Shown one piece after another: positions 19,430-48,180 of a DNA stretch of 64,000 nt. This stretch comes from Escherichia coli (GTDB taxonomy: Bacteria > Pseudomonadota > Gammaproteobacteria > Enterobacterales > Enterobacteriaceae). A program made the position numbers and the translations under genes. Every line of letters begins with the position of its first letter. The first letter of the stretch is position 1. The stretch is taken from the NCBI RefSeq assembly GCF_024298765.1, contig NZ_CP101210.1; one strand, 5' to 3'. Under the pieces are notes generated by a model. It had not been told where the DNA came from. It saw only the letters and a program-made list of their open reading frames with translations, and searched no databases.

Positions 19430-19489
19430 TACCAGACAACCTCACAGATGTGAAGTTTTTACTGAAATAACAATGAATTAGAGGGTTAT

Positions 19490-20860: not shown

Positions 20861-22269
20861 TGTCGATGCCTTCACAAATGCCCGCGATTTTACAGGCAGT
20901 GATGAAAGGTCAGTCCAAAGCACTGGCAGATGCCCACTATCCTTGTTGGCATCTCGCTCCCGTCACCGGACTAATGAACGATCCAAATGGCTTTTGCTGG
21001 TCTGGAGGCCGCTATCATCTGTTTTATCAGTGGAATCCACTGGCTTGTGATCATAAGTACAAATGTTGGGGGCACTGGAGTTCGACGGATTTATTGCACT
21101 GGCAGCATGAACCATTAGCGCTAATGCCCGATAAAGAGTACGACCGTAATGGTTGTTACTCAGGAAGCGCGGTTAATAATCAGGGCGTTCTCACACTTTG
21201 CTATACCGGTAATGTTAAGTTTGATGATGGCAGCAGAACGGCATGGCAATGTCTGGCCACCGAAAATAACCAGGGCGGGTTTGATAAACTAGGCCCTGTC
21301 ATATCGTTACCTGATGGTTACACCGGACATGTTCGTGATCCAAAAGTCTGGAAGCACAACAGCCAATGGTACATGGTGCTTGGCGCGCAAGATAAAGAGA
21401 AACGGGGGAAAGTGCTGCTGTATTCCTCTGTCGATCTGAATACCTGGTCTTTTCATGGAGAAATTGCTGGTAACGGTCTGAATGAAATAGATAACGCAGG
21501 ATACATGTGGGAATGTCCTGATCTTTTCGCCCTTGATGGTGAATACATTCTCCTCTGTTGCCCCCAGGGAATGGTGCGCGAACATGAGCGCTATCTGAAT
21601 ACTTATCCCTGCGCCTGGCTACATGGACAGTTTGATTACGAGACAGGCAAATTTACGCATGGCGCTTTCTCAGAGCTGGATGCGGGATTTGAATTCTATG
21701 CACCACAGACGATGGAAGCCCCGGACGGGCGACGATTGCTGGTCGGCTGGATGGGGGTTCCTGATGGCGAAGAGATGTTGCAGCCAACCAGAAAGCATCA
21801 TTGGCAGCATCAAATGACCTGTTTTCGCGAACTCTCATTCCAGAAGGGAAAATTGTTTCAGATGCCAATCAGGGAACTCGCGCAACTGCGTGAAGCTGAA
21901 CACTTCTGGCAAGGAAAAGCGGATCATGCGCCGCATGTCGAAATTGAACGCCTGGAAATGGACATCATTCCGTCGGGTGAGCTGTATCTGAATTTTGGCA
22001 ATGCGCTGGCACTGCATCTTAATGACGATGGTATTCAACTACAGAGGAGAAGCCTTGCAGGGCAAGAGAAACTAACTCGTTACTGGCGAGGAAGCGTAAC
22101 GTCACTGAAGATTCTCTGTGACAGTTCCAGCGTAGAGATATTCATCAATAATGGTGAAGGTGTAATGAGTAATCGTTATTTTCCCCATCATCCAGCTTCG
22201 CTGATATTACAGGGTGAGTCTGACGTCACGTTACGCTACTGGTCGCTACGCGCCTGCATGGTAGAATGA
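20860..22269 (+). CDS. scrB: sucrose-6-phosphate hydrolase (GH32)
   Basis: 469 aa with GH32 motifs [27 protein letters not shown]. Confidence 0.9.
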
Positions 22270-22294
22270 GGGTTTTGAATTACGGATCCTCGTC

Positions 22295-23302
22295 GTGAGA
22301 AAAACCAAACGCGTTACTATTAAAGACATTGCTGAACTGGCGGGAGTGTCGAAAGCAACCGCCAGTCTGGTTCTCAATGGTCGTGGCAAAGAGTTACGTG
22401 TTGCGCAGGAAACGCGTGAGCGTGTGCTGAGTATTGCCCAACAGCAGCATTATCAGCCCAGCATTCATGCCCGCTCATTACGGGACAACCGCAGTCATAC
22501 CATTGGTCTCGTCGTTCCTGAAATCACTAACTACGGATTTGCAGTATTTTCCCATGAACTGGAAACATTGTGTCGGGAAGCGGGCGTCCAACTCCTCATA
22601 TCCTGTACTGATGAAAATCCTTCACAGGAAACAATGGTGGTGAACAATATGATTGCCCGCCAGGTTGATGGGTTAATCGTCGCATCCAGTATGCTGCATG
22701 ATAATGACTATCAAAAACTTAGCGAGCAATTACCTGTTGTGTTGTTCGATCGCCACATGAACGGCAGCACATTGCCATTGGTCATTACTGACTCTGTTTC
22801 TCCCACCGCCGCTCTGGTGGCAGATATTGCACGGAGTCACCCGGATGAATTCTATTTTCTGGGGGGACAACCCCGTTTGTCACCGACTCGCGATCGACTG
22901 GAAGGATTTACACAAGGCTTGCAGCAAGCCGGAGTAACGCTACAACCTGAATGGATTATTCACGGTAATTATCATCCGAGCTCAGGCTATGAAATGTTTG
23001 CCGCGCTATGCGCTCGTTTAGGACGTCCTCCTAAAGCCTTATTCACTGCCGCTTGTGGATTACTGGAAGGCGTTCTGCGCTATATGAGCCAATATAATTT
23101 ACTCGACAGTACAATCCACCTGGCGAGTTTTGATGATCATTATTTGTATGATTCACTTTCGGTAAGAATCGACACAATACAACAGGATAATCGCCAACTT
23201 GCTTTTCACTGCTTTGAGCTTATTTCGCAACTGATTGAAGGTGAAACGCCATCCCCATTACAGCGTTATCTTCCTGCCAGTTTACAAAAACGCTATAGAT
23301 AA
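22295..23302 (+). CDS. scrR: LacI-family sucrose operon repressor (GTG start)
   Basis: 335 aa; N-terminal [26 protein letters not shown]; follows scrB. Confidence 0.85.
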
Positions 23303-23853: not shown

Positions 23854-24327
23854 TTATTCACTTTGTTCATGTTGATTGGGTTTTTCAATGAGGAAAGTTT
23901 CCAGGGTACAATCTCCATTAACCTGTTTCCGCAAAGCAAGTGGCATTTTACCGTTACCAGACCACGTCCTGGTTTCGCCGTTCTCATCCTCAAAGATATA
24001 TTTCGCTTTTCTCACACCGCCTTTGGGTTTTCGTTTGGTTTCCGTTGTCCCTGCAATAGCAGAAACTGGACCCTGCCATTCTTCCGGGTCAAGCCCCACA
24101 GAAACGATGTACTCAAATACCTGTTGACATTTAGTTTCCAGTTCCTTACGTTCAGCCGCTTTTCGTTCAGCATCTTCACGGCGTTCTTCAATAACAGTGT
24201 TGAGCTTTTCCTGCATGTCGAGTAATTGCTCAAAATCAAGTTCGCGTACATACGTGCGTAGTGAACGAATATTCGTCATTGTCCGACTGATGATGCTGTA
24301 TTCTTCTTCTTTAGTCAGTTTGCACAT
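23854..24327 (-). CDS. H-NS family nucleoid-associated protein (island-borne paralog)
   Basis: NIRSLRTYVREL oligomerisation N-terminus and C-terminal DNA-binding motif AKYIFEDENGETRTWSGNGKMPLALRK; GAGG RBS upstream of ATG. Confidence 0.8.
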   Translation of the reverse strand: MCKLTKEEEYSIISRTMTNIRSLRTYVRELDFEQLLDMQEKLNTVIEERREDAERKAAERKELETKCQQVFEYIVSVGLDPEEWQGPVSAIAGTTETKRKPKGGVRKAKYIFEDENGETRTWSGNGKMPLALRKQVNGDCTLETFLIEKPNQHEQSE

Positions 24328-34549: not shown

Positions 34550-34834
34550 ATGTCATACCGTTCAGCAGCCAGCGTTGCCTTCCCCGGCTGCTGTTATTGT
34601 AAGGCATTTTCGTTAAGAATGCAGAAGGAGAGGAGCGTGAGATTGCTGTTAAAAGGGCTCGTCGGAATGGCGCTGGCCTGGCTTGTTATTGGTTTCGGGA
34701 TGGAGTTATTTTTTCTCGCCGATCGGGTTCATCCGGCATTAAGAGTAATCGTTGGCCTGGGGATGTTATTCCTGATGATAATGATTGCGGGTGGTATGTG
34801 CGGTTCTCTTCTGTCACGAAAGAAAACATCATGA
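34550..34834 (+). CDS. small hydrophobic membrane protein (2 TM helices), hypothetical
   Basis: ORF with two hydrophobic stretches; true start may be the internal Met at 34622. Confidence 0.35.
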   Translation: MSYRSAASVAFPGCCYCKAFSLRMQKERSVRLLLKGLVGMALAWLVIGFGMELFFLADRVHPALRVIVGLGMLFLMIMIAGGMCGSLLSRKKTS

Positions 34835-34886
34835 CGTTCCTGTTTACGCCGCTACATTTGTGGTGGCTTTATGATTATTCAGAATA

Positions 34887-36560
34887 ATGAATTCACCTGT
34901 CGCGGCATGTTCAGCGACCAGCGCCGGACAGAAATATCGCTTTTTCTCAATTATTATGAAAATTAATCTTCCGTTCATACACTGGTCACGGATTAGCAAT
35001 GATAAGCGCCTCGTGTTATCAGTGGTTGTCTTTACCCTTTCTAATCTCCTTGTATCCTCAGGAGCGCATCTGATTTACCGGATATTATTCTTTATCCTGG
35101 CACTTCTTATTATTAAGGCAATGAAATCGATTACGTTGCGTTTGATTCTTGCCTTCCCGTTCACATTACTGACTGCTGCAGATATCAGTATCAGCCTGTA
35201 TTCATGGTGTACATTTGGCACAACATTTAATGATGGTTTTGCAATCAGTATCCTTCAGACAGATCCTGATGAAGTAATAAGAATGTTCAGGATGTATGTT
35301 GTTTATGTTATCGCATTTATTATCCTCTTTTTATTGTTCTTCTGTTCAGCAATAAATAAAACGTCCTCATTGCCATCGGAAAAGGTCACGGTAATTACAT
35401 TTTTATTGTTAATTACAGTAACGTTATATTCTTCCTTCCAGTTTGCGTTGAAGAAACAGTATCAAATAAATGAAGTTGATCCTTACATAGTCGCTTCCCG
35501 GTTTGCCACATATACCCCTTTCTTTAATCTGAACTATTTTGCACTGGCCGCAAAGGAGCATCAGAGATTAATGACGATTGCTGATACCATACCTCACTAC
35601 GATCTGGTGATTACGGATAACAACACTGACGTATTTGTTCTGGTGATTGGTGAATCTGCAAGGACTGATAACATGTCCATTTACGGGTATTCGCGCCCTA
35701 CCACACCAGAGCTTCAGAAACAGAAATCACGACTGAAACTGTTCACTCAGGCAATCAGTGGCGCACCTTACACCGCGCTGGCTGTTCCACTGGCGTTATC
35801 TGCCGATAGTGTACTGCATCATGATATCCGTAATTACCCTGATAACATTATCAACATGGCGAATCAGGCGGGGTTCGATACCTGGTGGCTCAGTGCGCAG
35901 TCCGCTTTCCGACAGAACGGAACGGCTGTGGCCAGTATCGCCATGCGGGCCAGAAACAGAATTTATGTCAGAGGCTATGATGAGTTACTGCTCCCACACC
36001 TGGCTGAAGCACTGAACAGTAATCCGGGGAGCAGGAAACTGATTGTTCTGCATCTGACGGGCAGCCATGAACCGGTTTGCAGTAACTGGCCCAGAGATAA
36101 AGCCGTGTTTAAACCGCTGGATACAGAAGAAGTCTGTTACGATAATTCCATTCATTATACCGACAGTTTGTTGGGACAGGTTTTCACCATGCTGGAAACG
36201 CGTCAGGCATCCGTCATGTATTTTTCAGATCACGGTCTGGAGTATGACCCGACAAAAGAACATGCCTATTTTCATGGTGGAATAAAACCCAGTCAGCAGG
36301 CTTATCATGTTCCGATGTTTATCTGGTACAGCCCGGCACTGGGAGAGCATGTCGATCGCCAGACGGTGAACAGCGTTTTTTCCACTGCGTATAATGATTA
36401 TCTGATTAATGCATGGATGGGCGTAACCAGACCGGCTCAACCGAAAACGCCGGAGGAGGTGATTACCCGCTGGCAGGGGAAATCCGTGGTTTTTGATGCC
36501 AGTCATAACGTGTTTGATTACAAAGTATTACGAAAGAACTTTAATGAACTCCAGGAATAA
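34887..36560 (+). CDS. phosphoethanolamine transferase, sulfatase superfamily (YhbX/EptA-like)
   Basis: N-terminal TM helices plus motifs VLVIGESARTDNMSIYGY, HLTGSHEP, YFSDHGL; close to remembered E. coli YhbX; start may be Met at 34956. Confidence 0.75.
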   Translation: MNSPVAACSATSAGQKYRFFSIIMKINLPFIHWSRISNDKRLVLSVVVFTLSNLLVSSGAHLIYRILFFILALLIIKAMKSITLRLILAFPFTLLTAADISISLYSWCTFGTTFNDGFAISILQTDPDEVIRMFRMYVVYVIAFIILFLLFFCSAINKTSSLPSEKVTVITFLLLITVTLYSSFQFALKKQYQINEVDPYIVASRFATYTPFFNLNYFALAAKEHQRLMTIADTIPHYDLVITDNNTDVFVLVIGESARTDNMSIYGYSRPTTPELQKQKSRLKLFTQAISGAPYTALAVPLALSADSVLHHDIRNYPDNIINMANQAGFDTWWLSAQSAFRQNGTAVASIAMRARNRIYVRGYDELLLPHLAEALNSNPGSRKLIVLHLTGSHEPVCSNWPRDKAVFKPLDTEEVCYDNSIHYTDSLLGQVFTMLETRQASVMYFSDHGLEYDPTKEHAYFHGGIKPSQQAYHVPMFIWYSPALGEHVDRQTVNSVFSTAYNDYLINAWMGVTRPAQPKTPEEVITRWQGKSVVFDASHNVFDYKVLRKNFNELQE

Positions 36561-36703
36561 TTCGTTAAAGTAATTTACGACTCTATTCTTTTTTAAAGGA
36601 AACTTTCAGAAAATGCCCCCAGGGCGATAACCTGGGGAAGGGGGACTGTGTTATTACTGGTGGATAAATTATTACTTGTTTGAAAGATACACTAATGCAA
36701 TAT

Positions 36704-37723
36704 CTACTGATGCTGGATGCTTGAGTGTTTCATTCCTGCTGCTGAAAACGGCAATATCCAGGGCCAGACATATTCACCGTTAATATTTCTGCATTTCTGT
36801 ACAATTTCCTCAGAAAGTGTCTCATCAATTCTTTCCCGCAACAGCTTCTGCTGTCTTAAAATGCTTTCGCATATTTCGAAATCATCTTCCTGCATCAGCA
36901 TTTCGGCGCATTTAATGATTTCTGCTCGTTCATGCAGCACAGAGGAATGGTTATAGAGCCAGTTTACAAACAGCAATGCTTCCGGATATTGTCCCCATAA
37001 TGGTGAGTATGTTGCATAGTAATCTTCTGCCGTATCCAGAGAGCCGGAGAAGTTATGCCGCACAGCAAGTGGAAATGGATGCAAATTTCCGCACAGCATT
37101 TCCGCGATGTAAGTGTTTGTAGCAAAGCCATGACGAAAAGCTGTGGCAGCCTTAACATGTTCCCCATTCAGAAAATGCAGAAGACCAAGTTCATACCAGT
37201 AAGGTGAAAATTCATCAGCATGCTCTTTCAGTACACTGAAGGCTTGCTTATGATCGCCTGTTCGTAACAGTTCTGAGCCCAACAACCAGCGGGCACCCTG
37301 ATTATCTTCAGGATTGTATGCCAGTATTTTATCAGTGAGCATAACCGCATCCTGATGACGCTGTAAGTGCACATTTGCGAGAATTGTTGCATAAAGCGCG
37401 CGCAGATAAGGGCGGTTTTCGGGATGCATCCAGATGATTTCACCACTGAAACTTTCCGGGATGAGACGATTACCTGCCGCCAGTCCTTTAAGAGCGGCGT
37501 TCAGTGCCTTACGCGGGGCATTCTGCTCCAGAAATGCATATGCCAGATGAGCGTGTATATCAATAAAGTCAGGCTCCTGTTGAGCAAGGCGTCTGAGTTT
37601 GTTGATATAACCCGTCTCACTGATTTCATCAGTGTCGTATGCATCAAGCACTTCTTCAAACTCCCCCAGTAATGGGCCAAACCAGGTATCCGGAAATACG
37701 AAACGACCCTGGTTATTGTTCAC
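36704..37723 (-). CDS. TPR-like hypothetical protein, probably 5'-truncated by IS1 (listed start is GTG abutting the IS1 end)
   Basis: 339-aa ORF whose frame stays open into IS1 at 37733; helical-repeat-like sequence; no family recognised. Confidence 0.45.
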   Translation of the reverse strand: MNNNQGRFVFPDTWFGPLLGEFEEVLDAYDTDEISETGYINKLRRLAQQEPDFIDIHAHLAYAFLEQNAPRKALNAALKGLAAGNRLIPESFSGEIIWMHPENRPYLRALYATILANVHLQRHQDAVMLTDKILAYNPEDNQGARWLLGSELLRTGDHKQAFSVLKEHADEFSPYWYELGLLHFLNGEHVKAATAFRHGFATNTYIAEMLCGNLHPFPLAVRHNFSGSLDTAEDYYATYSPLWGQYPEALLFVNWLYNHSSVLHERAEIIKCAEMLMQEDDFEICESILRQQKLLRERIDETLSEEIVQKCRNINGEYVWPWILPFSAAGMKHSSIQHQ

Positions 37724-37787
37724 TTCAAAGCGGGTGATGCTGCCAACTTACTGATTTAGTGTATGATGGTGTTTTTGAGGTGCTCCA

Positions 37788-38063
37788 GTGGCTTCTGTTT
37801 CTATCAGCTGTCCCTCCTGTTCAGCTACTGACGGGGTGGTGCGTAACGGCAAAAGCACCGCCGGACATCAGCGCTATCTCTGCTCTCACTGCCGTAAAAC
37901 ATGGCAACTGCAGTTCACTTACACCGCTTCTCAACCCGGTACGCACCAGAAAATCATTGATATGGCCATGAATGGCGTTGGATGCCGGGCAACAGCCCGC
38001 ATTATGGGCGTTGGCCTCAACACGATTTTACGTCACTTAAAAAACTCAGGCCGCAGTCGGTAA
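37788..38063 (+). CDS. insA: IS1 protein InsA
   Basis: 91 aa [48 protein letters not shown]... Confidence 0.9.
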
Positions 38064-39002: not shown

Positions 39003-40397
39003 TCAAAAAAAGTATTTGAAACGTAATCGGGCACCGTAACGATCATCGGTAATGTCACAATTACTATATCTACAGTTACTATCCAGAATTGAGTAATAAG
39101 CCCCGAGGTAAATATTAAAGTTCTCCATATCCATCACATTAGCAAACTGATAAGATGCATGAATGGTGTGAATGTTGTATATTCCTTCACCATCAATCCA
39201 GCAACCATTATTACACACGACACCACTAAATTCATCAATCTTATTATGTGCGTAGATATAACCCAGTTCGAAACGTTTCCACAGAGCATTAATACTGGCA
39301 GTGAAATCTTTCTCATTACTGGCATCCAAATAGGCGGTATTAAGAGTAACCACGATGCCATTTTCCGGATCTGTTTTCAGACCGTTCCATGTCATGCTAA
39401 TACCATAACCGGAACGATTGGACTGATCGACAAAATTCCCCTTATTATCGGTATAGCCATAAGCATTTTTTACCACGTTCGCTTCCATCGCTGCGGAGAC
39501 TGTGAATTCTTCCGTTGGCGACCAGGCAATTACCGGGCGCAGATAAGCGACATTTTTCTGCTGCTCCATATATCGTCCATGATAATTACCGTTATTATAT
39601 AAAGATGTTCCGTCTTCAAGTAACGTGTTTAACTCAAAATACCAGTTATCGAGTTGTTTACTGATGAGGAAATTACCACCAGCGTCAGAACGACCGCGTC
39701 CCTCTTTCATCATATAGATATAACCACGGCCATCAGCATAAATATCATTAGCTGTATTACCGGAATACTCAATGAAAGTATCCTGATTTAGAGGGAACAT
39801 ATCGTAAGCTTCAAAACGACCGACTTTCACTTTCCACTCGTCATCTTTTCCAAAAAAGAATAATGCATCATCAATATTCACTGAACCGTGCATATCCGCC
39901 AGTGGTTGTGCTGAAAATCCAGCGAAATAACCATTATCAAGCTTACGGGTACCGTCAAAACCTAATAGAATACGGCCATTAAGGTCCCACCGTTCATTCA
40001 CTGACTCACTGTTCGCCCCGGAACTTATCATTACTAACTGACCGGGTTTACTGGCAGCATCTATATTAAACTCCACATCACCATAAAACTTCAAATCATT
40101 GTAACCAGAGAGCAGAAAACCTGGAGAAGATGTTTTTTCTTTTGTTGACTCAACTACTGCATAGCTGTTAGCATCTTTTTTATTCTGCTCTGAACTAATT
40201 TGACGTATTTCAGAATGTTGTTCTATATCAAAACTCTTTAACATTCTTTCTGCTTTTTCCGCCCTTTTTTCTGCAGCTTCCAGGCGTTCTTCCAGCAATG
40301 CCATTCTTTGTTCAAGCGTTAGCCCCCCTGTTTTTGCTGCACACGCATTGTATTCCAGTAATAAAAAAAGAGATAAACCCAAAAGTAACTTATTCAT
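39003..40397 (-). CDS. rafY: raffinose-inducible outer membrane glycoporin
   Basis: 464 aa with signal peptide, coiled-coil N-extension, C-terminal ...RFKYFF; last gene of raf operon. Confidence 0.8.
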   Translation of the reverse strand: MNKLLLGLSLFLLLEYNACAAKTGGLTLEQRMALLEERLEAAEKRAEKAERMLKSFDIEQHSEIRQISSEQNKKDANSYAVVESTKEKTSSPGFLLSGYNDLKFYGDVEFNIDAASKPGQLVMISSGANSESVNERWDLNGRILLGFDGTRKLDNGYFAGFSAQPLADMHGSVNIDDALFFFGKDDEWKVKVGRFEAYDMFPLNQDTFIEYSGNTANDIYADGRGYIYMMKEGRGRSDAGGNFLISKQLDNWYFELNTLLEDGTSLYNNGNYHGRYMEQQKNVAYLRPVIAWSPTEEFTVSAAMEANVVKNAYGYTDNKGNFVDQSNRSGYGISMTWNGLKTDPENGIVVTLNTAYLDASNEKDFTASINALWKRFELGYIYAHNKIDEFSGVVCNNGCWIDGEGIYNIHTIHASYQFANVMDMENFNIYLGAYYSILDSNCRYSNCDITDDRYGARLRFKYFF

Positions 40398-40591
40398 TTT
40401 ACCCCCTTAAATAAAAACAAATGTGGGTACTCTTATATTCTCTGTATCAACACAAAATACCATTCATATTCTTCACCAGACTGGTATATATAATCGCAAC
40501 ACATTACCAAAAGCACACAGCAAAGATAATTAATGTGTACTGGCAAAGTAATGACAGATAATGTCAGAAAAAATACTGATATCGATATGTC

Positions 40592-42022
40592 TCAGGTCAG
40601 CATCCATAAAGTGCCATCAGTTAATATCGCATCGCCATGAGCGGCATATAACGATAATTGTCTCGAGTCCGCTTGCGGATAAATACGACTTGATAAGGTT
40701 GCCTCACCATCGTTAACAAACACTTCAACAGATGAACGATCCAAGAAAATACGAAGAGTCAGATATTCTGTATCAGGAAGTTCAACACTGCGGTAACCAT
40801 CCAACCCTTCCTCAGGGTAATAGCGCCACAGTACCAGTCGCCCGGCCTGATTATCCACATAAAGTCGCAGACCGTCTCCAAGGCGGACGCCATAGTGCTC
40901 CGCATGACTGTCAACCGTATGCCACGTCACCAATAATTCTGCGGCCTGTACATTTTCGGTCAGTAATTGCAAACCCTGTAACCTTACAGGGGATAATGGC
41001 TGGCATTTTTTGCGCAGAGATTCGACTTCACGCACAGGTCGCTGGCACAGCCGGCCATCGCGCTCAAAAACCTCTCTGGGCAGCGTCAGACATCCTGCCC
41101 AGGCTTCACTGCGGGTGGGCACGGGTGAATCCCACATATTCATCCATGCCATAATGATACGCCTGCCGTCCTCAGCCAGCATGGACTGTGGAGCATAAAA
41201 GTCATGACCATAATCCAGCTCTTCAAATCCCCCTTTCAGCGCAAAGACAGAACCAGGCTTCCAGCTCCCTGCCAACACACCGCTCTGAAAAAGGTTACGG
41301 AACCGATAACCGGAAGGGGGCATCCCCTGTGGTGAGAACATCAGCCAGTGAAAATTACCACACCTGAAGAAATCGGGGCATTCCCACATATAACTTTTTC
41401 CGGCTGCGGAATGAGCAAGAACATGCTCCAGATGCCAGTCCCGCAAAGATGTCCCGCGATACAACAGAACTTGCCCATTGTCAGAAGCGTCCCGGGCACC
41501 AATGACCATCCACCAGGAGCCGTCTTCGTGCCAGACTTTGGGATCACGGAAATGCATTATACCTTCCGGAGGTGTCAGCACACAGCCCTGCTTCTCAAAG
41601 TGAATACCATCATGACTTGTAGCCAGACACTGTACTTCACGGATAATGCTGTCATTACCACGATCATCGAGACAAATATGACCAGTATAAATAAGTGATA
41701 GCACGCCATCATCATCCACGGCACTCCCTGAAAAACAGCCATCACGATCATATTTATCTCCGGGTGCCAGCGCGATAGGTTCGTGTTGCCAGTGCAACAT
41801 GTCGGTACTGGTGGCATGCCCCCAGTGCATTGGCCCCTGATATGCGCTTGCAGGATGATGCTGGAAGAACGCATGGTAACGCCCATTGAAGTAAATAAGG
41901 CCATTTGGATCATTCATCCAGCCGGCAGGTGGAGCCAGATGAAAAATCGGGTACCAGGCATTACCACGACGTGCGCAAAGTTTTTCAAGGGCAGACTGTG
42001 CCAAAGCAAGACGCTGTTTCAT
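40592..42022 (-). CDS. rafD: raffinose invertase / sucrose hydrolase (GH32)
   Basis: 476 aa; motifs HLAPPAGWMNDPNG, RDPKVW, MWECPD. Confidence 0.85.
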   Translation of the reverse strand: MKQRLALAQSALEKLCARRGNAWYPIFHLAPPAGWMNDPNGLIYFNGRYHAFFQHHPASAYQGPMHWGHATSTDMLHWQHEPIALAPGDKYDRDGCFSGSAVDDDGVLSLIYTGHICLDDRGNDSIIREVQCLATSHDGIHFEKQGCVLTPPEGIMHFRDPKVWHEDGSWWMVIGARDASDNGQVLLYRGTSLRDWHLEHVLAHSAAGKSYMWECPDFFRCGNFHWLMFSPQGMPPSGYRFRNLFQSGVLAGSWKPGSVFALKGGFEELDYGHDFYAPQSMLAEDGRRIIMAWMNMWDSPVPTRSEAWAGCLTLPREVFERDGRLCQRPVREVESLRKKCQPLSPVRLQGLQLLTENVQAAELLVTWHTVDSHAEHYGVRLGDGLRLYVDNQAGRLVLWRYYPEEGLDGYRSVELPDTEYLTLRIFLDRSSVEVFVNDGEATLSSRIYPQADSRQLSLYAAHGDAILTDGTLWMLT

Positions 42023-43299
42023 CAGTTAATCTCCGAATGCGCTGCAGGGGCTTTTTCTACAGAAGGGTGTACGCTCCCGCGGGAAGAACTCAGCGTGAAA
42101 ACTGATATCACGGTAACAGTCAGAGCAATCATCCCGAGCACAAAATACGTATTCTGGAATCCCATACGATCATACAGGTGGCCGGCAAAGGTAGAGAGAA
42201 GTATTGCAGCAAGTTGTTTGGAAAACTGAAAACCTATTAAATAAACGGTCGCTGACAGTCGGGTGTCAAACACTGCCGTAATATATTTGAACGCCCCAAC
42301 CAGCAAAAATGGAACTTCAAGAGCGTGAAGCATTTTCAGAATCACCACTTCTGTCGCGGTGGTGGCAAAAGCAGAACCGGTAATGCGGATGGTCATAATT
42401 CCCCCCGCAACAAGCAGGGTATTTTTGGCACCAATGCGATGAATTATCCATGGTGTACAGAACATGATAATGGCATTACAAATCTCCCCCGCAGTGGTAG
42501 CAAATCCGAATGCTTTTATTCCTGCCTGAGGAGTGTCAAAGAATGAACGAAAAAATGTGGCAAACTGCTGATCAAATACATCATAGACACAGGCCACACC
42601 AATCGTGTAGAGAACAAACATCCACATCTGACGCATGCGAAACAGGCTGAAGACCATTCTGGTCGAAATCAGGGAAGAATTGGCACCCAGTGTATTCATA
42701 ACCATTGCCGTCTGGCTGGTACTGGGGCGCGCCAGAAACAACAGAAGAAGCAACAATAATGCGCTTCCTGACCCCATCCAGAAAACCAGAGAAGGATCGA
42801 CATTAAAAAGCATTCCAGCCATAGCCGCACATAACGCCCAGCCCAGACACCCGAACATCCTCGCTTTACCGTATTCAAATCCACGACTGCGACTGACCCG
42901 CTCTATATAAGCTTCAATAGCTCCGGCACCTGCAGAAAACACAAAACCAATAAAGACACCGCCAGTCAGTGCGCCTGCCCAGATATTGAAGCGCAGCAGG
43001 GGCGCAAATACATATAAAAAAAAGGGGGCGAAAAATACAAGTAACAGGCTGATACTCCAGATCAGGTTTTTTTTCAGTCCCAGGCGATCTGATATGACCC
43101 CAAGCAATGGCTGGAAACTGATGGCAAACAGAGAAAGACATGAAAAGACTATACCTGTATCCGTTTTACTCAGTCCGACCACATCGGACAGCCATACAGG
43201 CAAAAACGGAAAACAGGTTGCCATGATGAAAAAGTAGAGAAAGAAGAACAGACCGAAAATCCAGAAATCGGGATTTTTATGCGTACTTGCAGAATTCAT
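42022..43299 (-). CDS. rafB: raffinose permease (LacY-family MFS symporter)
   Basis: Start at MNSASTHKNPDFWIFGLFFFLYFF (GAGGG RBS); LacY-like throughout. Confidence 0.85.
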   Translation of the reverse strand: MNSASTHKNPDFWIFGLFFFLYFFIMATCFPFLPVWLSDVVGLSKTDTGIVFSCLSLFAISFQPLLGVISDRLGLKKNLIWSISLLLVFFAPFFLYVFAPLLRFNIWAGALTGGVFIGFVFSAGAGAIEAYIERVSRSRGFEYGKARMFGCLGWALCAAMAGMLFNVDPSLVFWMGSGSALLLLLLLFLARPSTSQTAMVMNTLGANSSLISTRMVFSLFRMRQMWMFVLYTIGVACVYDVFDQQFATFFRSFFDTPQAGIKAFGFATTAGEICNAIIMFCTPWIIHRIGAKNTLLVAGGIMTIRITGSAFATTATEVVILKMLHALEVPFLLVGAFKYITAVFDTRLSATVYLIGFQFSKQLAAILLSTFAGHLYDRMGFQNTYFVLGMIALTVTVISVFTLSSSRGSVHPSVEKAPAAHSEIN

Positions 43300-43361
43300 T
43301 ATTCTTACCCTCACGGGATAATATTGAGAAACAGGACGGAGCTGAGGCTCCGTACCTCTCT

Positions 43362-45488
43362 TCACACAGCTCTTTCAAGTGCTATCAAAATCGCACTCTC
43401 CGGATCCAGTACGGGGAGCTGAATCCCTCCCTGTGCCAGCCATTCACCACTGGCCTCAAGGCTCTGATTCATCCAGACAGGTAATTTGCGCATGGTATGA
43501 CCGCCTTCACCAACCACCTGGAGGTCCGGGTGATCAATAACCCGAAGCCGGTAACGCACTTCCGCCGCCAGACCGGGAAAACGAAGTATGCCTGGTAAGG
43601 TGTAATCCGGCATTGCAAGCTGGCTGATCATAAAAAGTGCCTGAGACTGATCAGGGCTGACGACTCCCTGAACCTGTATCGAAGGATCTGGCATATCCAC
43701 ACGCCAGAGAACTCCTGTATGAATCAGTTGTCGCCATTCTTTATAGAGCAAGGCATACCGGCGATAACCGTCAGATTCCTTCGCATCTGCGGCCACCGGA
43801 TCCAGCTCCAGCCCCATATGGCCGAACAATGCCGTCAGCCCACGAAAAGCGATGCTGTGCTGCCGGAAAGTTGCATGGCAGCGGCGATGGCCAATATGCG
43901 CCCCCATCACCTCAGGAGGGAAAAAGTAACTCATGCCACGTTGTATGGTGCAGCGCTCCAGGGCATCATTATTGTCAGATGCCCAGAACCGGTGTGTGCG
44001 TTTCAGGACTTCGAAGTCAATACGCCCCCCACCGGAAGCACAGGACTCAAACTCAACATGTGGAAAACGTTCACGGAGGAGATCAAGCAATCGATAGAAC
44101 TGACGGGTCTGTGCATCTGCTGCCGCACGGCCTTCATGCCCTGCCTGTACAAGCTCACGATTCATGTCCCATTTCACATAATCAACCGGATGTTCTCCCA
44201 GTAACCATAAGAAACGTTCATAAATGTAAGCAAAGGCCTCTGGAATATTCAGGTTAAGAACATACTGATATCTTCCGGTTGGCTGGGAATATCCAGGCAT
44301 TGACAATACCCAGTCAGGATGAAGACGAAACAGGTCAGAATCCGGGTTAATCATTTCCGGCTCAACCCATATGCCAAATTCCATACCGAGAGATTTCACA
44401 TGTTTAATAACCGGCATCAGCCCGTTCGGGTATTTCTGTTCATCGGTATACCAGTCGCCCAGAGCCGCGCGGTCATCGTTACGTCCTTTAAACCAGCCAT
44501 CATCAATAATGAAACGTTCAACGCCCAGTGCTGCTGCACGCTCAGCCATCTGCATGATGTAATCAGGATTGTGATTGAAATAAATACCTTCCCAGGTATT
44601 GAGATGTACAGGGCGGGGTTTTTGCTCAGGGAAACGGATAATTTCATCACGCAAAAAACGATGGTATTGCTGACTCATTCCATTCAGGCCATCCGCAGAG
44701 TGGCAGGCATATAGCCACGGGGTGTACAGGGTTTCATTCTTCCTGAGAGCCTTCTCACCCGGCATCCACAGAGCCTCAGCCTGAACGTAACGCCTGCCGT
44801 CAGTTTTTGCCTCACATCTCATGCGGTGATTTCCACTCCACCCCAGATGCACAGCCCACACCTCTCCCTGTTGTTCCGAGAAGCCTGGCGTGCCGACAAT
44901 CAGCGCCGGAAAATGCTCATGAGATGTCCGCCCTCTGCGATTTTCCAGAACAAAAGCATCATGAGTGAGACGTACCCTGTGCGGCTGAAATTCACGAGTC
45001 CAGCGTCCGTGAAAAGCCATGACTTCTTCCGCACGTTCCGCTAAAGGTAAAGTGATGGCGAAACGATTTATCTGCCAGTCCCCCTCTCTGAGGTTGGTCA
45101 GTGCATGACGAACTTTCAGAATTCCTGATGGCGTCATCACCAGCTCGCTGACCAGACGCAGGCCGGCTACCGAATCTTCACTGGTAAGTCTCAGAGTGTT
45201 TTCGGTATGTTCCACGTCAACTGTATAAAAAACAGGAGATGCATCCAGCCCATTCCTGTGTCCTTCCAGTCCCGGAGAGCTAAAAAGTCCCAGGGCATTT
45301 TCAGCCATCAGTGTTAGTGGCGTATCAATATCCAGACGACCATTCGCAACCGGTCTTTCCAGGCTGGCACAGTCATCCGGTGAGAAATGTTTCAGTGCAG
45401 AGCCCCACCAGATAATTTCTGCATGTGGACGGGTTTTAATAATTAAATCAGAGCGAGGACTGCTCAGTCTGCAGTACTTTGAAACCAT
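43362..45488 (-). CDS. rafA: alpha-galactosidase (GH36)
   Basis: 708-aa ORF with GH36-like catalytic region (KWDMN, CASGGGR). Confidence 0.85.
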   Translation of the reverse strand: MVSKYCRLSSPRSDLIIKTRPHAEIIWWGSALKHFSPDDCASLERPVANGRLDIDTPLTLMAENALGLFSSPGLEGHRNGLDASPVFYTVDVEHTENTLRLTSEDSVAGLRLVSELVMTPSGILKVRHALTNLREGDWQINRFAITLPLAERAEEVMAFHGRWTREFQPHRVRLTHDAFVLENRRGRTSHEHFPALIVGTPGFSEQQGEVWAVHLGWSGNHRMRCEAKTDGRRYVQAEALWMPGEKALRKNETLYTPWLYACHSADGLNGMSQQYHRFLRDEIIRFPEQKPRPVHLNTWEGIYFNHNPDYIMQMAERAAALGVERFIIDDGWFKGRNDDRAALGDWYTDEQKYPNGLMPVIKHVKSLGMEFGIWVEPEMINPDSDLFRLHPDWVLSMPGYSQPTGRYQYVLNLNIPEAFAYIYERFLWLLGEHPVDYVKWDMNRELVQAGHEGRAAADAQTRQFYRLLDLLRERFPHVEFESCASGGGRIDFEVLKRTHRFWASDNNDALERCTIQRGMSYFFPPEVMGAHIGHRRCHATFRQHSIAFRGLTALFGHMGLELDPVAADAKESDGYRRYALLYKEWRQLIHTGVLWRVDMPDPSIQVQGVVSPDQSQALFMISQLAMPDYTLPGILRFPGLAAEVRYRLRVIDHPDLQVVGEGGHTMRKLPVWMNQSLEASGEWLAQGGIQLPVLDPESAILIALERAV

Positions 45489-45526
45489 AAGACATTCTCC
45501 TTTCTCAGGGATGCCTTACTGTTGAT

Positions 45527-45561
45527 CCGAAACGTTTCGGGTATCAACCAAAACGTTTCGG
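45527..45561 (-). promoter_or_regulatory. putative RafR operator pair (two LacI-type palindromes) in rafA promoter
   Basis: CCGAAACGTTTCGG (45527-45540, perfect) and CCAAAACGTTTCGG (45548-45561) between rafR stop and rafA start. Confidence 0.55.
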
Positions 45562-45583
45562 ATATGTGAGCTGGATAAAAAAA

Positions 45584-46594
45584 TCAGGAGCAAGGAGGAT
45601 GAATCGTCTTTCCCGGATAAAATACCGGGTTCCAGACAACCTGTAGTGGTTTTGATGATGAATCAGTAATTATCTGATATATCATCTCGGAAATCTGGCG
45701 ACCAACGAGGCTTCGTGTTGACTGAATAACTGCAGCCACATCCAGCTCAATAATACTGTCCTGTGGCAAACCATCATATACAACCAGAGATACCGCATCT
45801 TTTCCTGAAAGACGACCGCTCAACTGCAGTGCCATGGCAGCACCATCTCCACTCAGGTCATTGTCAGTAATAATAGCTGTTGGTGGTATCGGTAGTGACA
45901 TTAACTCCATCACGGCCTGATATCCTGCTCGCCGTGTGGGAGAAACCAGCCGCAGCCATGTATCTTCCAGTTCATGCTCATTCAGTGCATCAAGCCATCC
46001 CTGACGTCTTGCAACAACATAGCTATGTGAAGTGTCTTCACTCAACAATGCAATACGTTTATGTCCCAAAGCAATCAGTTTCTGGGTTGCCTGTCCAGTC
46101 CCGGCATGATTATCAAAGTCAAACCACGCACAGGGCAGACCAGATGGTACCCGACCAAGAGCCAGAAATGGAATACCTGCTTTATGAAGGTGTGTGATAC
46201 GGGGATCGTCATCCAGAGTGTGTGCAATGATGAGAGCATCAACCCTGCGACTTTCAACAAGCCGCATATAGCTGTGGCAATCGGCATGCTCATCATCAGC
46301 TATCAGTAGTAAGTCAATATCATGGTGAGCAAGTTCCCGGCTGATGCAACTGACCATATCCATAAAAACACCACTGTTAAATGGCACATCACGTCCAGGA
46401 TAAACCAGACCGACAGCATCGGTTTTACCGGTTTTGAGTCTTCTTGCCTGAGTATTAGGACGGTAACCGCGTCGACGAGCTTCAGCTTCCACCCGTGCAC
46501 GGGTGGAAGCTGACACATCTGCATAGCCTCCAAGAGCCCGACTGACAGTGGTGACAGAAACTCCGAGTGCAGTGGCAATCGCCTTAAGTGACAT
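45584..46594 (-). CDS. rafR: LacI-family raffinose operon repressor
   Basis: 336 aa; HTH MSLKAIATALGVSVTTVSRAL. Confidence 0.8.
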   Translation of the reverse strand: MSLKAIATALGVSVTTVSRALGGYADVSASTRARVEAEARRRGYRPNTQARRLKTGKTDAVGLVYPGRDVPFNSGVFMDMVSCISRELAHHDIDLLLIADDEHADCHSYMRLVESRRVDALIIAHTLDDDPRITHLHKAGIPFLALGRVPSGLPCAWFDFDNHAGTGQATQKLIALGHKRIALLSEDTSHSYVVARRQGWLDALNEHELEDTWLRLVSPTRRAGYQAVMELMSLPIPPTAIITDNDLSGDGAAMALQLSGRLSGKDAVSLVVYDGLPQDSIIELDVAAVIQSTRSLVGRQISEMIYQIITDSSSKPLQVVWNPVFYPGKTIHPPCS

Positions 46595-46743: not shown

Positions 46744-47928
46744 TTAACTCTCCTGGATGGAAAGTGAATCAATGTAGTCAGCGTACCATTGCATCATTTC
46801 ACGGCGACCATCGAGATACAGGGCATGATTATAGGTACCCCTGATGGAATTTTTATCCACATGAGCTAACTGCATTTCAATCCAGGCAGAATTAAAGCCC
46901 TGTTCGTGCAGAATGGTACTCATGGTGTGACGAAAACCATGACCGGTTGCCCTGCCATCGTAACCGATACGTTTGAGCACCATATTGATGCTGGCTTCGC
47001 TCATTGGCTTGTTGATATCACAACGTCCCGGGAAAACCAGCCGGTATTGTCCGGAGAAAGTTTTGAGCTGCAGCAGAATGTCAGTGGCCTGTCGTGACAG
47101 TGGTACGACATGTTTACGTCGCATTTTCATGCGGCTTTCAGGGATTGTCCACAGGGCATTATCAAAATCAATTTCTGACCATTCAGCGGACCGTAGTTCA
47201 ATCGTTCTGAGGCCTGTCAGAAGCAGCAGATTTGTCGCCATGCGGGTAACAGGACTGCCATGATATTCAGCGAGCTTCCGGAGAAAAACAGGGAGCTCAT
47301 CTGCTCTCAGGTGGGGGAAATGTGCAGCTTTTGGCGCCGCCAGCGTACTGGTCAGTTCAGATGCCGGATTGACAGTGGCTCGTCCGGTGGCGATGGCATA
47401 ACGAAAAATCTGATTACAGTATTGACGCACCTTACGAAGTTTTTCCAGCGAGCCACGTTTTTCTATGCGGCGCAGAATTTCCAGCATTTCCAGCGGGAGG
47501 ATATCAGTAACGCTTCGTTTGCCCAGATACGGGAAAATATCTTTATCCAGAGCCTCCAGTACGCTTCTGGCGTAACTTTCAGACCATGACAAAGATTTAT
47601 GCTGATGCCATTCCGTAGCAAGGGCATGGAACGTATTGGTGGCAGAGATTTTCTGAGTGAGTTTTTCCTTTCGCTTCTTTTCGCCCGGGTCGCCACCTTC
47701 GGAGATAATTTTTCGGGCATCGTCGCGTTTGATTCTGGCTTCAGCAAGGGAGACGTCGGGATAGACGCCGAGGGCCAGTTTTTTCTCTTTTCCTGCTATC
47801 CGGTATTTAAGCCGCCAGTAGCGGGCACCCGTGGTTTTTACCAGCAGATATAAACCACGTTCGTCAGAGAGTTTATAGTCTTTTTCTTTAGGTCTGGCTG
47901 TTTCGACCTGTCTGGCTGTAAGTGCCAT
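46744..47928 (-). CDS. int: P4-type tyrosine integrase
   Basis: Start MALTARQVETARPKEKDYKLSDERGLYLLV (AGGAG RBS); C-terminal catalytic region HGFRHT...Y; adjacent to tRNA-Phe. Confidence 0.85.
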   Translation of the reverse strand: MALTARQVETARPKEKDYKLSDERGLYLLVKTTGARYWRLKYRIAGKEKKLALGVYPDVSLAEARIKRDDARKIISEGGDPGEKKRKEKLTQKISATNTFHALATEWHQHKSLSWSESYARSVLEALDKDIFPYLGKRSVTDILPLEMLEILRRIEKRGSLEKLRKVRQYCNQIFRYAIATGRATVNPASELTSTLAAPKAAHFPHLRADELPVFLRKLAEYHGSPVTRMATNLLLLTGLRTIELRSAEWSEIDFDNALWTIPESRMKMRRKHVVPLSRQATDILLQLKTFSGQYRLVFPGRCDINKPMSEASINMVLKRIGYDGRATGHGFRHTMSTILHEQGFNSAWIEMQLAHVDKNSIRGTYNHALYLDGRREMMQWYADYIDSLSIQES

Positions 47929-48104
47929 ATGGGGGCTCCTGAAACTGACTGAACACAATGAGCCCCCACCGGTGCCCCCAATGAACGCTTGATTGAGAGA
48001 GAGTTCAGTAGAGTTCGGTGGAGTTCAGGATGTTCAGATTGCTTGTAACGATGTGATTATACTTGAGTTTCGTGGAGTTCGGGAGATGAATCTGGAAGTG
48101 AAAG

Positions 48105-48180
48105 TGGTGCCCGGACTCGGAATCGAACCAAGGACACGGGGATTTTCAATCCCCTGCTCTACCGACTGAGCTATCCGGGC
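48105..48180 (-). tRNA. pheV: tRNA-Phe (anticodon GAA)
   Basis: Reverse complement reads GCCCGGATAGCTCAGTCGGTAGAGCAGGGGATTGAAAATCCCCGTGTCCTTGGTTCGATTCCGAGTCCGGGCACCA; pheV rather than pheU inferred from neighbouring yqgA-speC. Confidence 0.95.

What the first reader, a model, noticed from the sequence alone, without database searches (positions are those of the whole stretch)
34887..36560. Accessory YhbX/EptA-family phosphoethanolamine transferase paralog on the island
Enzymes of this family decorate lipid A or core with phosphoethanolamine and can alter polymyxin susceptibility and phage receptors. This copy sits directly downstream of the candidate defense module and a YkgJ-like gene on the same strand; it may be functionally linked or independent cargo.
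Basis: partly seen in the sequence, partly recalled or inferred. Interest (0 to 1): 0.4.

Follow-up and report, generated by a model that had tools for sequence, protein, structure and literature searches.

The report
Island-borne YhbX-like phosphoethanolamine transferase gene
This is an intact, already-annotated extra copy of an E. coli membrane enzyme that attaches phosphoethanolamine to envelope sugars; it travels as standard cargo next to the integrase of tRNA-inserted genomic islands, is not part of the neighbouring phage-defence genes, and is unlikely to be a colistin-resistance gene.

Summary
The ORF is real: 34887-36560 (+), 557 aa, though its true start is probably ATG 34956 (534 aa). 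It is a full-length phosphoethanolamine (PEtN) transferase. It has about five N-terminal TM helices, a periplasmic sulfatase-fold domain (Pfam E=4e-50), and every catalytic residue intact (E256, T296, H394, D448, H449, H463). A confident AF2 model matches EcEptC, NmEptA and MCR-1. Its only close relative is core E. coli YhbX (65% aa); OpgE, EptC, EptA and EptB are all in the 19-28% range. All curated EptA/EptB/CptA/MCR models score far below cut-off.

The window is E. coli ECJXMCRH7, from an island at tRNA-Phe (pheU). The gene occurs in 633 of 5426 complete genomes (454 near full length), always chromosomal. RefSeq annotates it as "phosphoethanolamine transferase". Papers mention comparable genes in tia/SE-PAI/pheU/pheV/selC islands, but I did not show that those are this gene. 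Alleles are under purifying selection (dN/dS 0.14-0.18).

The same unit of 65-aa membrane ORF, PEtN gene and TPR gene also lies downstream of leoCBA at selC. A variant without the TPR gene lies directly beside the integrase at pheU. It is therefore island-backbone cargo beside a variable defence slot, not a component of the upstream module. The acceptor is unknown and lipid A is unlikely. Ordinary finding, low interest.

The parts
34887..36560 (+). PEtN transferase ORF as annotated (557 aa; RefSeq WP_025492097.1)
   Evidence: ORF list. 100% identical to annotated CDSs in many E. coli chromosomes. Pfam Sulfatase E=4.4e-50.
34956..36560 (+). Probable true coding sequence (534 aa, starting at Met24)
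   Evidence: The alignment with YhbX starts here. dN/dS is 0.14-0.18 for codons 24-557 and about 0.9 for codons 1-23. Some NCBI records annotate 534-aa forms. The AF2 model of this form has pLDDT 93.3.
35010..35447 (+). N-terminal membrane domain, about five TM helices (res 42-187 in 557-aa numbering)
   Evidence: Hydropathy scan. Long helices in the AF2 model. Full-length structural alignment to NmEptA 5fgn and MCR-1 9nww. Pfam EptA_B_N scores only 14.8 bits, below its 22.3 cut-off.
35634..36377 (+). Periplasmic sulfatase-fold catalytic domain (res 250-497)
   Evidence: PF00884 E=4.4e-50. Foldseek match to the EcEptC periplasmic domain 6a82, E=3.6e-20, TM 0.75.
35772..35774 (+). Codon of the catalytic nucleophile Thr296 (= NmEptA Thr280). 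The other active-site codons are E256 35652-35654, H394 36066-36068, D448/H449 36228-36233 and H463 36273-36275.
   Evidence: HMMER alignment to 5fgn. Alignment with the E. coli paralogs. Codons checked. Roles of the residues taken from PMC10525099.
34637..34834 (+). 65-aa two-TM small ORF (GTG start with a GGAG-rich Shine-Dalgarno sequence) that travels with the PEtN gene
   Evidence: Annotated as WP_001238004.1. Intact at 80% aa identity upstream of the PEtN gene in the leoCBA/selC context, 94% in the 62-kb circular element, and 5'-shortened in the pheU int-adjacent context. Found only in E. coli, with no Pfam hit.
34848..34867 (+). Terminator-like hairpin between the small ORF and the PEtN gene
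   Evidence: Pattern scan, conserved in L005. In genomes that have lost the PEtN gene, homology ends at 34867. The RNA fold of 34830-34960 gives only z=-2.05, so this is weak evidence.
36616..36638 (-). Terminator-like hairpin, on the - strand, between the convergent PEtN and TPR genes
   Evidence: Pattern scan, 8-bp stem with 6 GC pairs.
36704..37738 (-). Convergent TPR-repeat protein gene, part of the same conserved right flank
   Evidence: Pfam TPR hits and RefSeq annotation. Co-linear with the PEtN gene at 95% identity over 3096 bp between the pheV and selC islands. It persists next to the integrase in islands where only a 3' remnant of the PEtN gene is left.
30628..34497 (+). Upstream variable cassette, context only and not part of the PEtN unit: WYL regulator, 359-aa PDC-M09A-like protein, 523-aa PDC-M40B-like protein, YkgJ-type CxxCxxCC protein
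   Evidence: Pfam and PADLOC hits. Replaced by leoCBA between the same flanks in L005.
46744..48180 (-). Island anchor: tyrosine integrase (46744-47928) and tRNA-Phe (48105-48180; next to dicD/dsbD, i.e. pheU)
   Evidence: Annotation of source genome NZ_CP067342.1. Rfam tRNA hit at 48108-48180.

Best explanation
The gene encodes a functional, island-borne paralog of E. coli YhbX, an integral inner-membrane phosphoethanolamine transferase.

Shown:
- About five N-terminal TM helices anchor a periplasmic alkaline-phosphatase/sulfatase-fold domain.
- The Zn site (E256, T296, D448, H449) and the second-metal histidines (H394, H463) are intact.
- The protein is under purifying selection.
- It belongs to the YhbX clade, which sits with OpgE and EptC and apart from the lipid-A/Kdo enzymes EptA, EptB and MCR.

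Inferred from the family mechanism:
- Thr296 attacks phosphatidylethanolamine, releasing diacylglycerol and forming a PEtN-Thr intermediate.
- PEtN then passes to a periplasm-exposed acceptor.

Acceptor (inferred, uncertain): a glycan other than lipid A, such as LPS core, periplasmic glucan or another envelope polysaccharide. Any effect on polymyxin MIC should therefore be small or absent.

Genomically, the gene and a 65-aa membrane ORF (often with a convergent TPR gene) form integrase-proximal backbone cargo of P4-type-integrase islands at pheU, pheV and selC. The gene lies beside a slot that holds different defence cassettes, and it is not a component of those cassettes.
For: Family and fold:
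- PF00884 E=4e-50.
- PDB sequence hits: EcEptC 1.7e-24, NmEptA 1.3e-23 over residues 72-494.
- AF2 model with pLDDT 93.3 and pTM 0.91.
- Foldseek: EcEptC 6a82 E=3.6e-20; full-length NmEptA TM 0.63; MCR-1 TM 0.65.
- TM helices.

Catalytic residues are conserved. Their roles are described in PMC10525099.

Clade placement:
- 65% identity to YhbX, against 19-28% to EptA/B/C and OpgE.
- A nine-member YhbX-clade profile scores OpgE 190, EptC 185, EptA 132 and EptB 126 bits.
- NJ tree: 100% bootstrap for island alleles plus YhbX, and 98% for the split from EptA/EptB.
- Only 2 Cys in the periplasmic domain, against 10 in EptA.

Selection: dN/dS 0.14-0.18 between alleles that differ by dS 0.14-0.25.

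Independence from the upstream cassette:
- L001 (pheV) and L005 (selC) share the left flank (integrase remnant plus tia-like OMP, 81%) and the right flank (small ORF, PEtN, TPR; 95% over 3096 bp). The middle is WYL/M09A/M40B/YkgJ in one and leoCBA in the other.
- 339 genomes carry the first arrangement and 68 the second.
- In L021 the gene sits directly beside the integrase at pheU.
- The PEtN protein hits no PADLOC model.
Against: - No experiment exists on this protein or on YhbX, so the acceptor is unknown (PMC4013655). YhbX did not turn up in my term searches of the PEtN-transferase review (PMC10525099).
- The gene is on the same strand as the upstream cassette with short gaps. The hairpin between them is weak, so read-through co-transcription is possible.
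- The association with the M09A/M40B cassette persists across alleles about 6% diverged (L003/L012). This could reflect function rather than linkage.
- The placement nearer OpgE/EptC rests on 24-28% identities and on an NJ node with 60% support.
- Of the 633 genomes with a match, 179 fall below 80% coverage. Some carry IS-cut remnants, so the gene is dispensable.
Confidence: 0.7

Rival explanations
1. It is a lipid-A PEtN transferase (EptA/MCR-like) that raises polymyxin/colistin resistance in its carriers.
For: It has the same superfamily, architecture and active site as NmEptA and MCR-1. CjEptC and EcEptC show that non-EptA members can affect sensitivity to cationic peptides (PMC10525099).
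Against: - 19-27% identity to EptA.
- NCBIfam EptA equivalog scores 98 bits against a 660 cut-off. The MCR-1 to MCR-13 models score 38-67 bits against cut-offs of 1075-1250.
- The EptA_B_N membrane domain is below threshold.
- The Cys-rich disulfide pattern of EptA/MCR is absent.
- The protein separates from EptA/EptB with 98% bootstrap support.
- No PmrA or PhoP box within 2 mismatches upstream.
- The gene is chromosomal in about 12% of E. coli genomes. A different island-borne PEtN transferase tested by MIC gave no significant change (PMC6408774; not this protein).
Confidence: 0.08
2. It is a working component or effector of the upstream candidate defence module (WYL, M09A-like, M40B-like, YkgJ), for example remodelling the envelope when the module fires or masking a phage receptor.
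For: It is on the same strand with short intergenic gaps. The whole block co-occurs in 339-351 genomes. The block is retained at about 94% identity in a 62-kb circular element.
Against: - Largely the same PEtN flank is found behind leoCBA (68 genomes) and directly next to an integrase without any cassette.
- The PEtN protein matches no PADLOC model.
- A hairpin lies between the small ORF and the PEtN gene.
- Homologues in Buttiauxella and Mixta are solitary genes among housekeeping genes.
Confidence: 0.1
3. It is a decaying passenger with no current function.
For: About 28% of genomes with a match (179 of 633) fall below 80% coverage. Some carry IS-truncated remnants in BL21-type selC and O145 pheV islands. 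No regulatory boxes or clear promoter were found. The annotated start is doubtful.
Against: The ORF is intact in 454 genomes. dN/dS is 0.10-0.13 in the catalytic domain despite dS up to 0.25. All catalytic residues are conserved across alleles and in YhbX.
Confidence: 0.07

Closest known systems
E. coli YhbX (b3173; putative PEtN transferase, function untested)
   Same: 65% aa identity over residues 42-557. Same length class, TM layout and active-site motifs (GES, PYT, GSHEP, DHGLE, YFHGG). Sister clade with 100% bootstrap support.
   Different: YhbX is a near-core gene between leuU and argG, in 5178 of 5426 genomes at 95% DNA identity or more. This copy is on tRNA-inserted islands in about 12% of genomes. 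It has more diverse alleles and a linked 65-aa ORF that is absent upstream of yhbX. dS between the two is saturated, so the split is ancient.
OpgE (YbiP), PEtN transferase for osmoregulated periplasmic glucans (Bontemps-Gallo 2013, cited in PMC10525099)
   Same: Best-scoring characterised E. coli paralog against the YhbX-clade profile (190 bits). Weak sister group in the NJ tree. EptA_B_N is equally sub-threshold. Two Cys in the periplasmic domain in both.
   Different: Only 24-28% identity. The sister node has 60% support. Nothing here tests the acceptor.
EptC/CptA, PEtN transferase for phosphorylated heptose I of the LPS core (EcEptC structures 5zzu/6a82)
   Same: Top PDB hit by sequence (1.7e-24) and by fold (E=3.6e-20, TM 0.75). 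Shares the 'PYT' nucleophile motif.
   Different: 24% identity. The NCBIfam CptA models score 131-146 bits against cut-offs of 404-900.
EptA/PmrC, NmEptA and MCR-1 to MCR-13 (lipid A PEtN transferases)
   Same: Same two-domain architecture and Zn/Thr active site. Full-length structural alignment with TM 0.63-0.65.
   Different: 19-27% identity. All curated models are far below cut-off. The membrane domain diverges and the disulfide-forming cysteines are lacking.
Island-borne 'putative sulfatase/PEtN transferase' genes reported in tia GI, SE-PAI and pheU/pheV/selC islands, and the YjgX/PEAX type
   Same: Literature describes a putative sulfatase or PEtN transferase next to tia and the integrase at tRNA-Sec and tRNA-Phe. 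This is the arrangement seen here (PMC8454413, PMC7371111, PMC6174562).
   Different: I did not compare sequences with the genes in those papers, so their identity with this gene is unconfirmed. The K-12 yjgX pseudogene type is a different paralog (31% identity). The PEAX of PMC6408774 is a shorter gene of about 1.5 kb that I did not compare. None has a demonstrated function.

Membership tests
PEtN transferase superfamily (EptA/EptB/EptC/OpgE/MCR; alkaline-phosphatase fold) | C-terminal periplasmic sulfatase/alkaline-phosphatase-fold domain | tested here: met
   PF00884 171 bits against a cut-off of 25. Foldseek to EcEptC, NmEptA and MCR-1 catalytic domains gives TM 0.71-0.77 normalised by target length.
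PEtN transferase superfamily (EptA/EptB/EptC/OpgE/MCR; alkaline-phosphatase fold) | N-terminal domain of about five transmembrane helices | tested here: met
   Hydropathy peaks at residues 42-60, 66-84, 86-104, 138-156 and 169-187. Helices in the AF2 model. Full-length alignment to 5fgn and 9nww.
PEtN transferase superfamily (EptA/EptB/EptC/OpgE/MCR; alkaline-phosphatase fold) | Catalytic Thr nucleophile with Zn ligands Glu/Asp/His, plus two second-site His residues | tested here: met
   E256, T296, D448, H449, H394 and H463 align with NmEptA E240, T280, D452, H453, H383 and H465 (roles from PMC10525099).
PEtN transferase superfamily (EptA/EptB/EptC/OpgE/MCR; alkaline-phosphatase fold) | Transfer of PEtN from phosphatidylethanolamine to an acceptor | not testable with these tools
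   Needs biochemistry or mass spectrometry.
YhbX clade | Closest relative is YhbX, forming a monophyletic group with it | tested here: met
   65% identity. Next-nearest proteins among 1.8 billion representatives are at most 45% identical. 100% bootstrap support.
YhbX clade | Orthology: same chromosomal locus (leuU-yhbX-argG) | tested here: not met
   This copy lies in islands at pheU, pheV or selC. Core yhbX is present separately in 95% of genomes. It is therefore a paralog, not the ortholog.
EptA / MCR lipid-A PEtN transferases | Score above the curated NCBIfam equivalog or exception cut-offs | tested here: not met
   EptA NF008619 scores 98 against 660. MCR models score 38-67 against 1075-1250.
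EptA / MCR lipid-A PEtN transferases | EptA_B_N (PF08019) membrane domain above the gathering score | tested here: not met
   14.8 bits against 22.3. EptA scores 151 and EptB 56.
EptA / MCR lipid-A PEtN transferases | PEtN added to lipid A phosphates, with a rise in polymyxin MIC | not testable with these tools
   Needs lipid A MS and MIC assays.
EptC/CptA | Score above the NCBIfam CptA cut-offs | tested here: not met
   NF007933 scores 146.5 against 404. NF012179 scores 131.5 against 900.
OpgE | Orthologous-level similarity to OpgE | tested here: not met
   24-28% identity. OpgE-like representatives form a separate clade.
Known anti-phage defence system components (PADLOC-DB 2.0) | Match to any PADLOC protein model | tested here: not met
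   0 families at E<=0.01 for the PEtN protein, the small ORF, YkgJ and TPR. Only the 359-aa and 523-aa proteins and the WYL protein match.
Lpt-O/Opt (plasmid O-antigen PEtN transferase of Shigella flexneri) | Sequence similarity to Lpt-O of pSFxv_2 | tested here: not met
   No BLASTP hit at E<=1e-3.

The most novel reading that the evidence does not exclude
The 65-aa two-TM protein and the YhbX-like enzyme could form a conserved two-gene 'conversion' unit at the integrase-proximal end of pheU/pheV/selC islands. In this reading the unit adds PEtN to an acceptor outside the eleven described acceptor classes, for example O-antigen, ECA, capsule or periplasmic glucan. That would change phage or host recognition of the carrier, as prophage-encoded O-antigen modification does. 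It would also give core YhbX its first function.
Probability: 0.15. Interest if true: 0.5.

Novelty: already known. Interest (0 to 1): 0.18.

Why it matters
The practical value is mostly negative. This gene should not be read as a colistin-resistance determinant or as part of the neighbouring defence system. Its modest positive value is that it and core YhbX form a PEtN-transferase clade with no known acceptor. The island copy occurs naturally in about one in eight E. coli genomes and comes with a linked small membrane protein. That gives a convenient gain-of-function handle for finding out what YhbX-type enzymes modify.

Tried and rejected
- K-12 yjgX (KpLE2 pseudogene) as the ortholog: only 31% identity over residues 248-479. 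Rejected.
- Shigella Lpt-O/Opt (pSFxv_2) as the closest characterised mobile PEtN transferase: no BLASTP similarity. Rejected.
- Gene neighbourhoods of the nearest non-E. coli homologues (Mixta 45%, Buttiauxella 42%) as a clue to the acceptor: solitary genes among unrelated housekeeping genes. Uninformative.
- Envelope-regulon boxes (PmrA, PhoP, PhoB, RcsB, CpxR) in 34400-34990: none within 2 mismatches.
- Promoter scan: nothing convincing on the + strand just upstream of the gene.
- Rfam over the whole window: only RNA-OUT of IS10 and tRNA-Phe, with no leader or riboswitch.
- RNA fold of the 34830-34960 leader: z=-2.05, not compelling.
- Homologues of the 65-aa ORF outside E. coli: none.
- Literature on YhbX function: strain-construction mentions and 'no function established' statements only.
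- One Biopython bootstrap run timed out and was replaced by a faster implementation.
Full report
**1. The observation**

The window contains an uninterrupted ORF at 34887-36560 on the + strand (557 aa, ATG to TAA).
- It matches Pfam Sulfatase PF00884 at E=4.4e-50 over residues 250-497.
- By sequence it matches solved PEtN transferases: E. coli EptC (5zzu, 1.7e-24), full-length Neisseria EptA (5fgn, 1.3e-23, aligned over residues 72-494) and MCR-1.

The window itself is E. coli. The stretch 24000-31000, and separately 30500-37800, is 100% identical to the chromosome of strain ECJXMCRH7 (NZ_CP067342.1, chicken, China). RefSeq annotates the ORF there as WP_025492097.1, 'phosphoethanolamine transferase'.

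**2. Anatomy of the protein**

A hydropathy scan gives about five TM segments between residues 42 and 187.

An AlphaFold2 model was built on 63 homologues (alignment A1). It is confident (mean pLDDT 93.3, pTM 0.91) and shows long N-terminal helices followed by an alpha/beta domain. Foldseek against the PDB returns:
- the EcEptC periplasmic domain first (6a82, E=3.6e-20, TM 0.75 normalised by target);
- then full-length NmEptA (5fgn, TM 0.63) and full-length MCR-1 (9nww, TM 0.65).

From the HMMER alignment to 5fgn, all six active-site residues of NmEptA are matched: E240, T280, H383, D452, H453 and H465 correspond to E256, T296, H394, D448, H449 and H463. The motifs are GES, PYT, GSHEP, SDHG and YFHGG. 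They are also conserved in YhbX. The roles of these residues are taken from PMC10525099.

**3. Start codon**

Four points suggest the real start is ATG 34956 (Met24, 534 aa) rather than 34887:
- YhbX (541 aa) and the other homologues align only from about residue 24-42 of the annotated protein.
- Between three island alleles, codons 24-557 give dN/dS of 0.14-0.18. Codons 1-23 give about 0.9, though on very few sites.
- Several NCBI records annotate a 534-aa form.
- Neither ATG has a good Shine-Dalgarno sequence.

This stays an inference.

**4. Which family**

Pairwise identities are 64-65% to YhbX, 24% to EptC, 24-28% to OpgE, 22-25% to EptB and 19-27% to EptA.

Every curated NCBIfam model is far below its cut-off:
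- generic PEtN-lipid A transferase domain: 163 against 500;
- CptA: 146 against 404;
- EptB: 112 against 493;
- EptA: 98 against 660;
- MCR-1 to MCR-13: 38-67 against 1075-1250.

The EptA_B_N membrane-domain model scores 14.8 bits, below its 22.3 cut-off. OpgE (14.7) and EptC (20.9) are similar, whereas EptA scores 151 and EptB 56.

A profile of the nine nearest YhbX-clade sequences scores OpgE 190, EptC 185, EptA 132 and EptB 126 bits. An NJ tree with 200 bootstraps gives:
- 100% support for island alleles plus YhbX;
- 94% for a small Enterobacterales YhbX group;
- a weak (60%) sister relation to the OpgE clade;
- 98% for the split from EptA/EptB.

The periplasmic domain has 2 cysteines, against 10 in EptA.

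Across 5.8 billion proteins, nothing lies between the island cluster (88-100% identity) and YhbX (66%). Across 1.8 billion 50%-identity representatives, the next relatives are 40-45% identical, from Buttiauxella and Mixta.

The protein is thus a paralog of YhbX in a clade whose acceptor has never been determined. [quoted passage not shown] YhbX did not turn up in my term searches of the review PMC10525099, whose acceptor classes run to XI.

**5. Distribution and selection**

- The gene is found in 633 of 5426 complete E. coli genomes, always on chromosomes. It is near full length in 454 of them.
- Core yhbX is present in 5178 of 5426 genomes, so the island gene is an extra copy.
- Island alleles differ by dS 0.14-0.25 yet keep dN/dS at 0.10-0.13 in the catalytic domain.
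- dS against yhbX is saturated, so the duplication is old.
- Remnants show frequent loss. O145 RM9873 keeps a 75-bp fragment cut by IS1 next to the pheV integrase. A BL21 derivative keeps only about 120 bp beside the TPR gene at selC.

**6. Context: linked to the defence module or independent?**

In the window the order on the + strand is:
- WYL regulator (30628-31488);
- a 359-aa protein (PADLOC PDC-M09A, 3.5e-22);
- a 523-aa protein (PDC-M40B, 1.3e-42);
- a YkgJ-type CxxCxxCC protein overlapping the previous stop by 4 bp (34231-34497);
- a 65-aa two-TM ORF (34637-34834);
- a hairpin (34848-34867);
- the PEtN gene;
- a convergent TPR gene (36704-37738).

Further right lie an IS1 remnant, a raf-type cluster, the integrase and tRNA-Phe beside dicD/dsbD (pheU). 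In strain W2-5 the same block sits at pheV.

The decisive comparison is with strain O17_K12a (L005, selC). Its order is integrase remnant, tia, leoC, leoB, leoA, small ORF, PEtN, TPR, integrase, tRNA-Sec. Blastn of L001 against L005 gives:
- left flank (integrase remnant plus tia-like OMP): 81% identity over 1163 bp;
- right flank (small ORF, PEtN, TPR): 95% identity over 3096 bp;
- no similarity in the roughly 4.4-kb middle.

This is a cassette swap between conserved flanks. LeoBC is itself a PADLOC defence component. From my own knowledge it is the 'Eleos' system of Millman et al. 2022.

Counts and further contexts:
- 339 genomes carry M40B through PEtN, and 68 carry leoA-PEtN.
- In a third context (E1535) the PEtN gene lies directly beside the pheU integrase, without the TPR gene or any cassette.
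- The M40B/YkgJ/small-ORF stretch also occurs without the PEtN gene, but there ISKpn26 has cut it off at 34867.
- A 62-kb circular element (CP057032.1) keeps the whole block at about 94% identity.

The PEtN protein hits no PADLOC model.

My reading is that the PEtN gene, with its small ORF, is integrase-proximal backbone cargo lying next to a variable defence slot. It is not a component of the cassette. Read-through transcription cannot be excluded.

**7. The small ORF**

The 65-aa ORF starts at a GTG preceded by GAAGGAGAGGAG. It is retained upstream of the PEtN gene in all four contexts examined:
- 100% identity in L001 and L013;
- 94% in L003;
- 80% in L005, with no frameshift;
- 5'-shortened in L021.

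It has homologues only in E. coli and no Pfam hit. It is absent upstream of core yhbX and of the Mixta and Buttiauxella homologues. Its role is unknown, and I flag it as the one mildly unexplained feature.

**8. Mechanism**

Shown: the architecture, the intact active site, purifying selection and clade placement.

Inferred from the established family mechanism (NmEptA/MCR-1, PMC10525099):
- Thr296, activated at the Zn site, attacks phosphatidylethanolamine.
- Diacylglycerol leaves and a PEtN-Thr intermediate forms.
- PEtN is passed to a periplasm-exposed acceptor.

The acceptor is not known. The affinities to OpgE and EptC, the lack of EptA/MCR hallmarks and the absence of PmrA/PhoP boxes make lipid A unlikely. 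I put that at about 8%.

**9. What is already known**

- The sequence is in RefSeq and occurs on at least 1000 contigs.
- Putative sulfatase or PEtN transferase genes have been reported, all without functional tests: next to tia and the integrase in a tRNA-Sec island of ETEC ST182 (PMC8454413), in SE-PAI (PMC7371111) and in pheU/pheV/selC insertions of LEE-negative STEC (PMC6174562). I did not compare sequences with those genes, so whether they are this gene is unconfirmed.
- A different island-borne PEtN transferase (PEAX in PMC6408774) gave no significant change in colistin MIC.

**10. Verdict**

The gene is an ordinary, already-annotated accessory paralog of YhbX. What this check adds:
- The catalytic machinery and fold are intact.
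- The gene belongs with the non-lipid-A branch of the family.
- The start codon is probably mis-annotated.
- It is backbone cargo next to a swappable defence slot, not part of the defence module.
- It is consistently paired with an E. coli-only small membrane ORF.

Interest is low (0.18).

Noticed in passing
window ~25852-30625 (ISEcp1 tnp 29178-30440 -, IS10-like ISVsa5 tnp 27835-29043 -, RNA-OUT 29036-29105, blaCTX-M-14 ~26715-27590 -, IS903 remnant): A chromosomal ISEcp1-blaCTX-M-14 transposition unit, itself hit by an IS10-like element, is inserted into the 5' end of the WYL regulator gene of the upstream cassette. The uninterrupted gene in W2-5 encodes 299 aa. Here homology resumes at its codon ~12, so the native promoter and first codons are split off. 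This may alter expression of the cassette.
   Followed up: partly
window 30628-34497; L005 4824-8872: The slot between a tia-like OMP gene and the small ORF/PEtN flank holds WYL + PDC-M09A-like + PDC-M40B-like + YkgJ in 339 genomes and leoCBA (dynamin-like, PADLOC LeoBC) in 68. It looks like a defence-cassette hotspot with conserved flanks.
   Followed up: partly
window 32663-34234: PGAP names the 523-aa protein 'ATP--cob(I)alamin adenosyltransferase', but it has no Pfam hit and matches PADLOC PDC-M40B (1.3e-42). This is probably an annotation error that has propagated. Its N-terminus has a DH...N...N motif reminiscent of HNH nucleases, and its C-terminus has hydrophobic segments.
   Followed up: no
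window 34637-34834: A 65-aa two-TM ORF, restricted to E. coli with alleles 77-100% identical, is always found just upstream of the island PEtN gene. It survives alone where ISKpn26 removed the PEtN gene (ATCC 8739, next to a type II Zorya system).
   Followed up: partly
window 36704-37738 (-); L020 6271-7314: The TPR-repeat protein gene next to the integrase is much more widespread than the PEtN gene. Examples are the BL21-derivative selC island and sites next to pap operons at 84-91% identity. It often has a ~120-bp 3' remnant of the PEtN gene beside it.
   Followed up: partly
window 39003-46594, ~16800-23300 and ~4200-6600: The island also carries a raffinose-type cluster (porin, GH32 invertase, MFS permease, alpha-galactosidase, LacI-type regulator). 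It carries a sucrose PTS cluster as well (porin, IIBC, sucrose-6-P hydrolase, LacI regulator, kinase) and IS66-disrupted T6SS tssF/tssG remnants.
   Followed up: no
L002 ~2400-2953 (K-12-type yhbX locus): Core yhbX lies immediately next to the leuU tRNA gene, a typical island insertion site. The 'core' copy may itself be an ancient island relic. Not tested.
   Followed up: no
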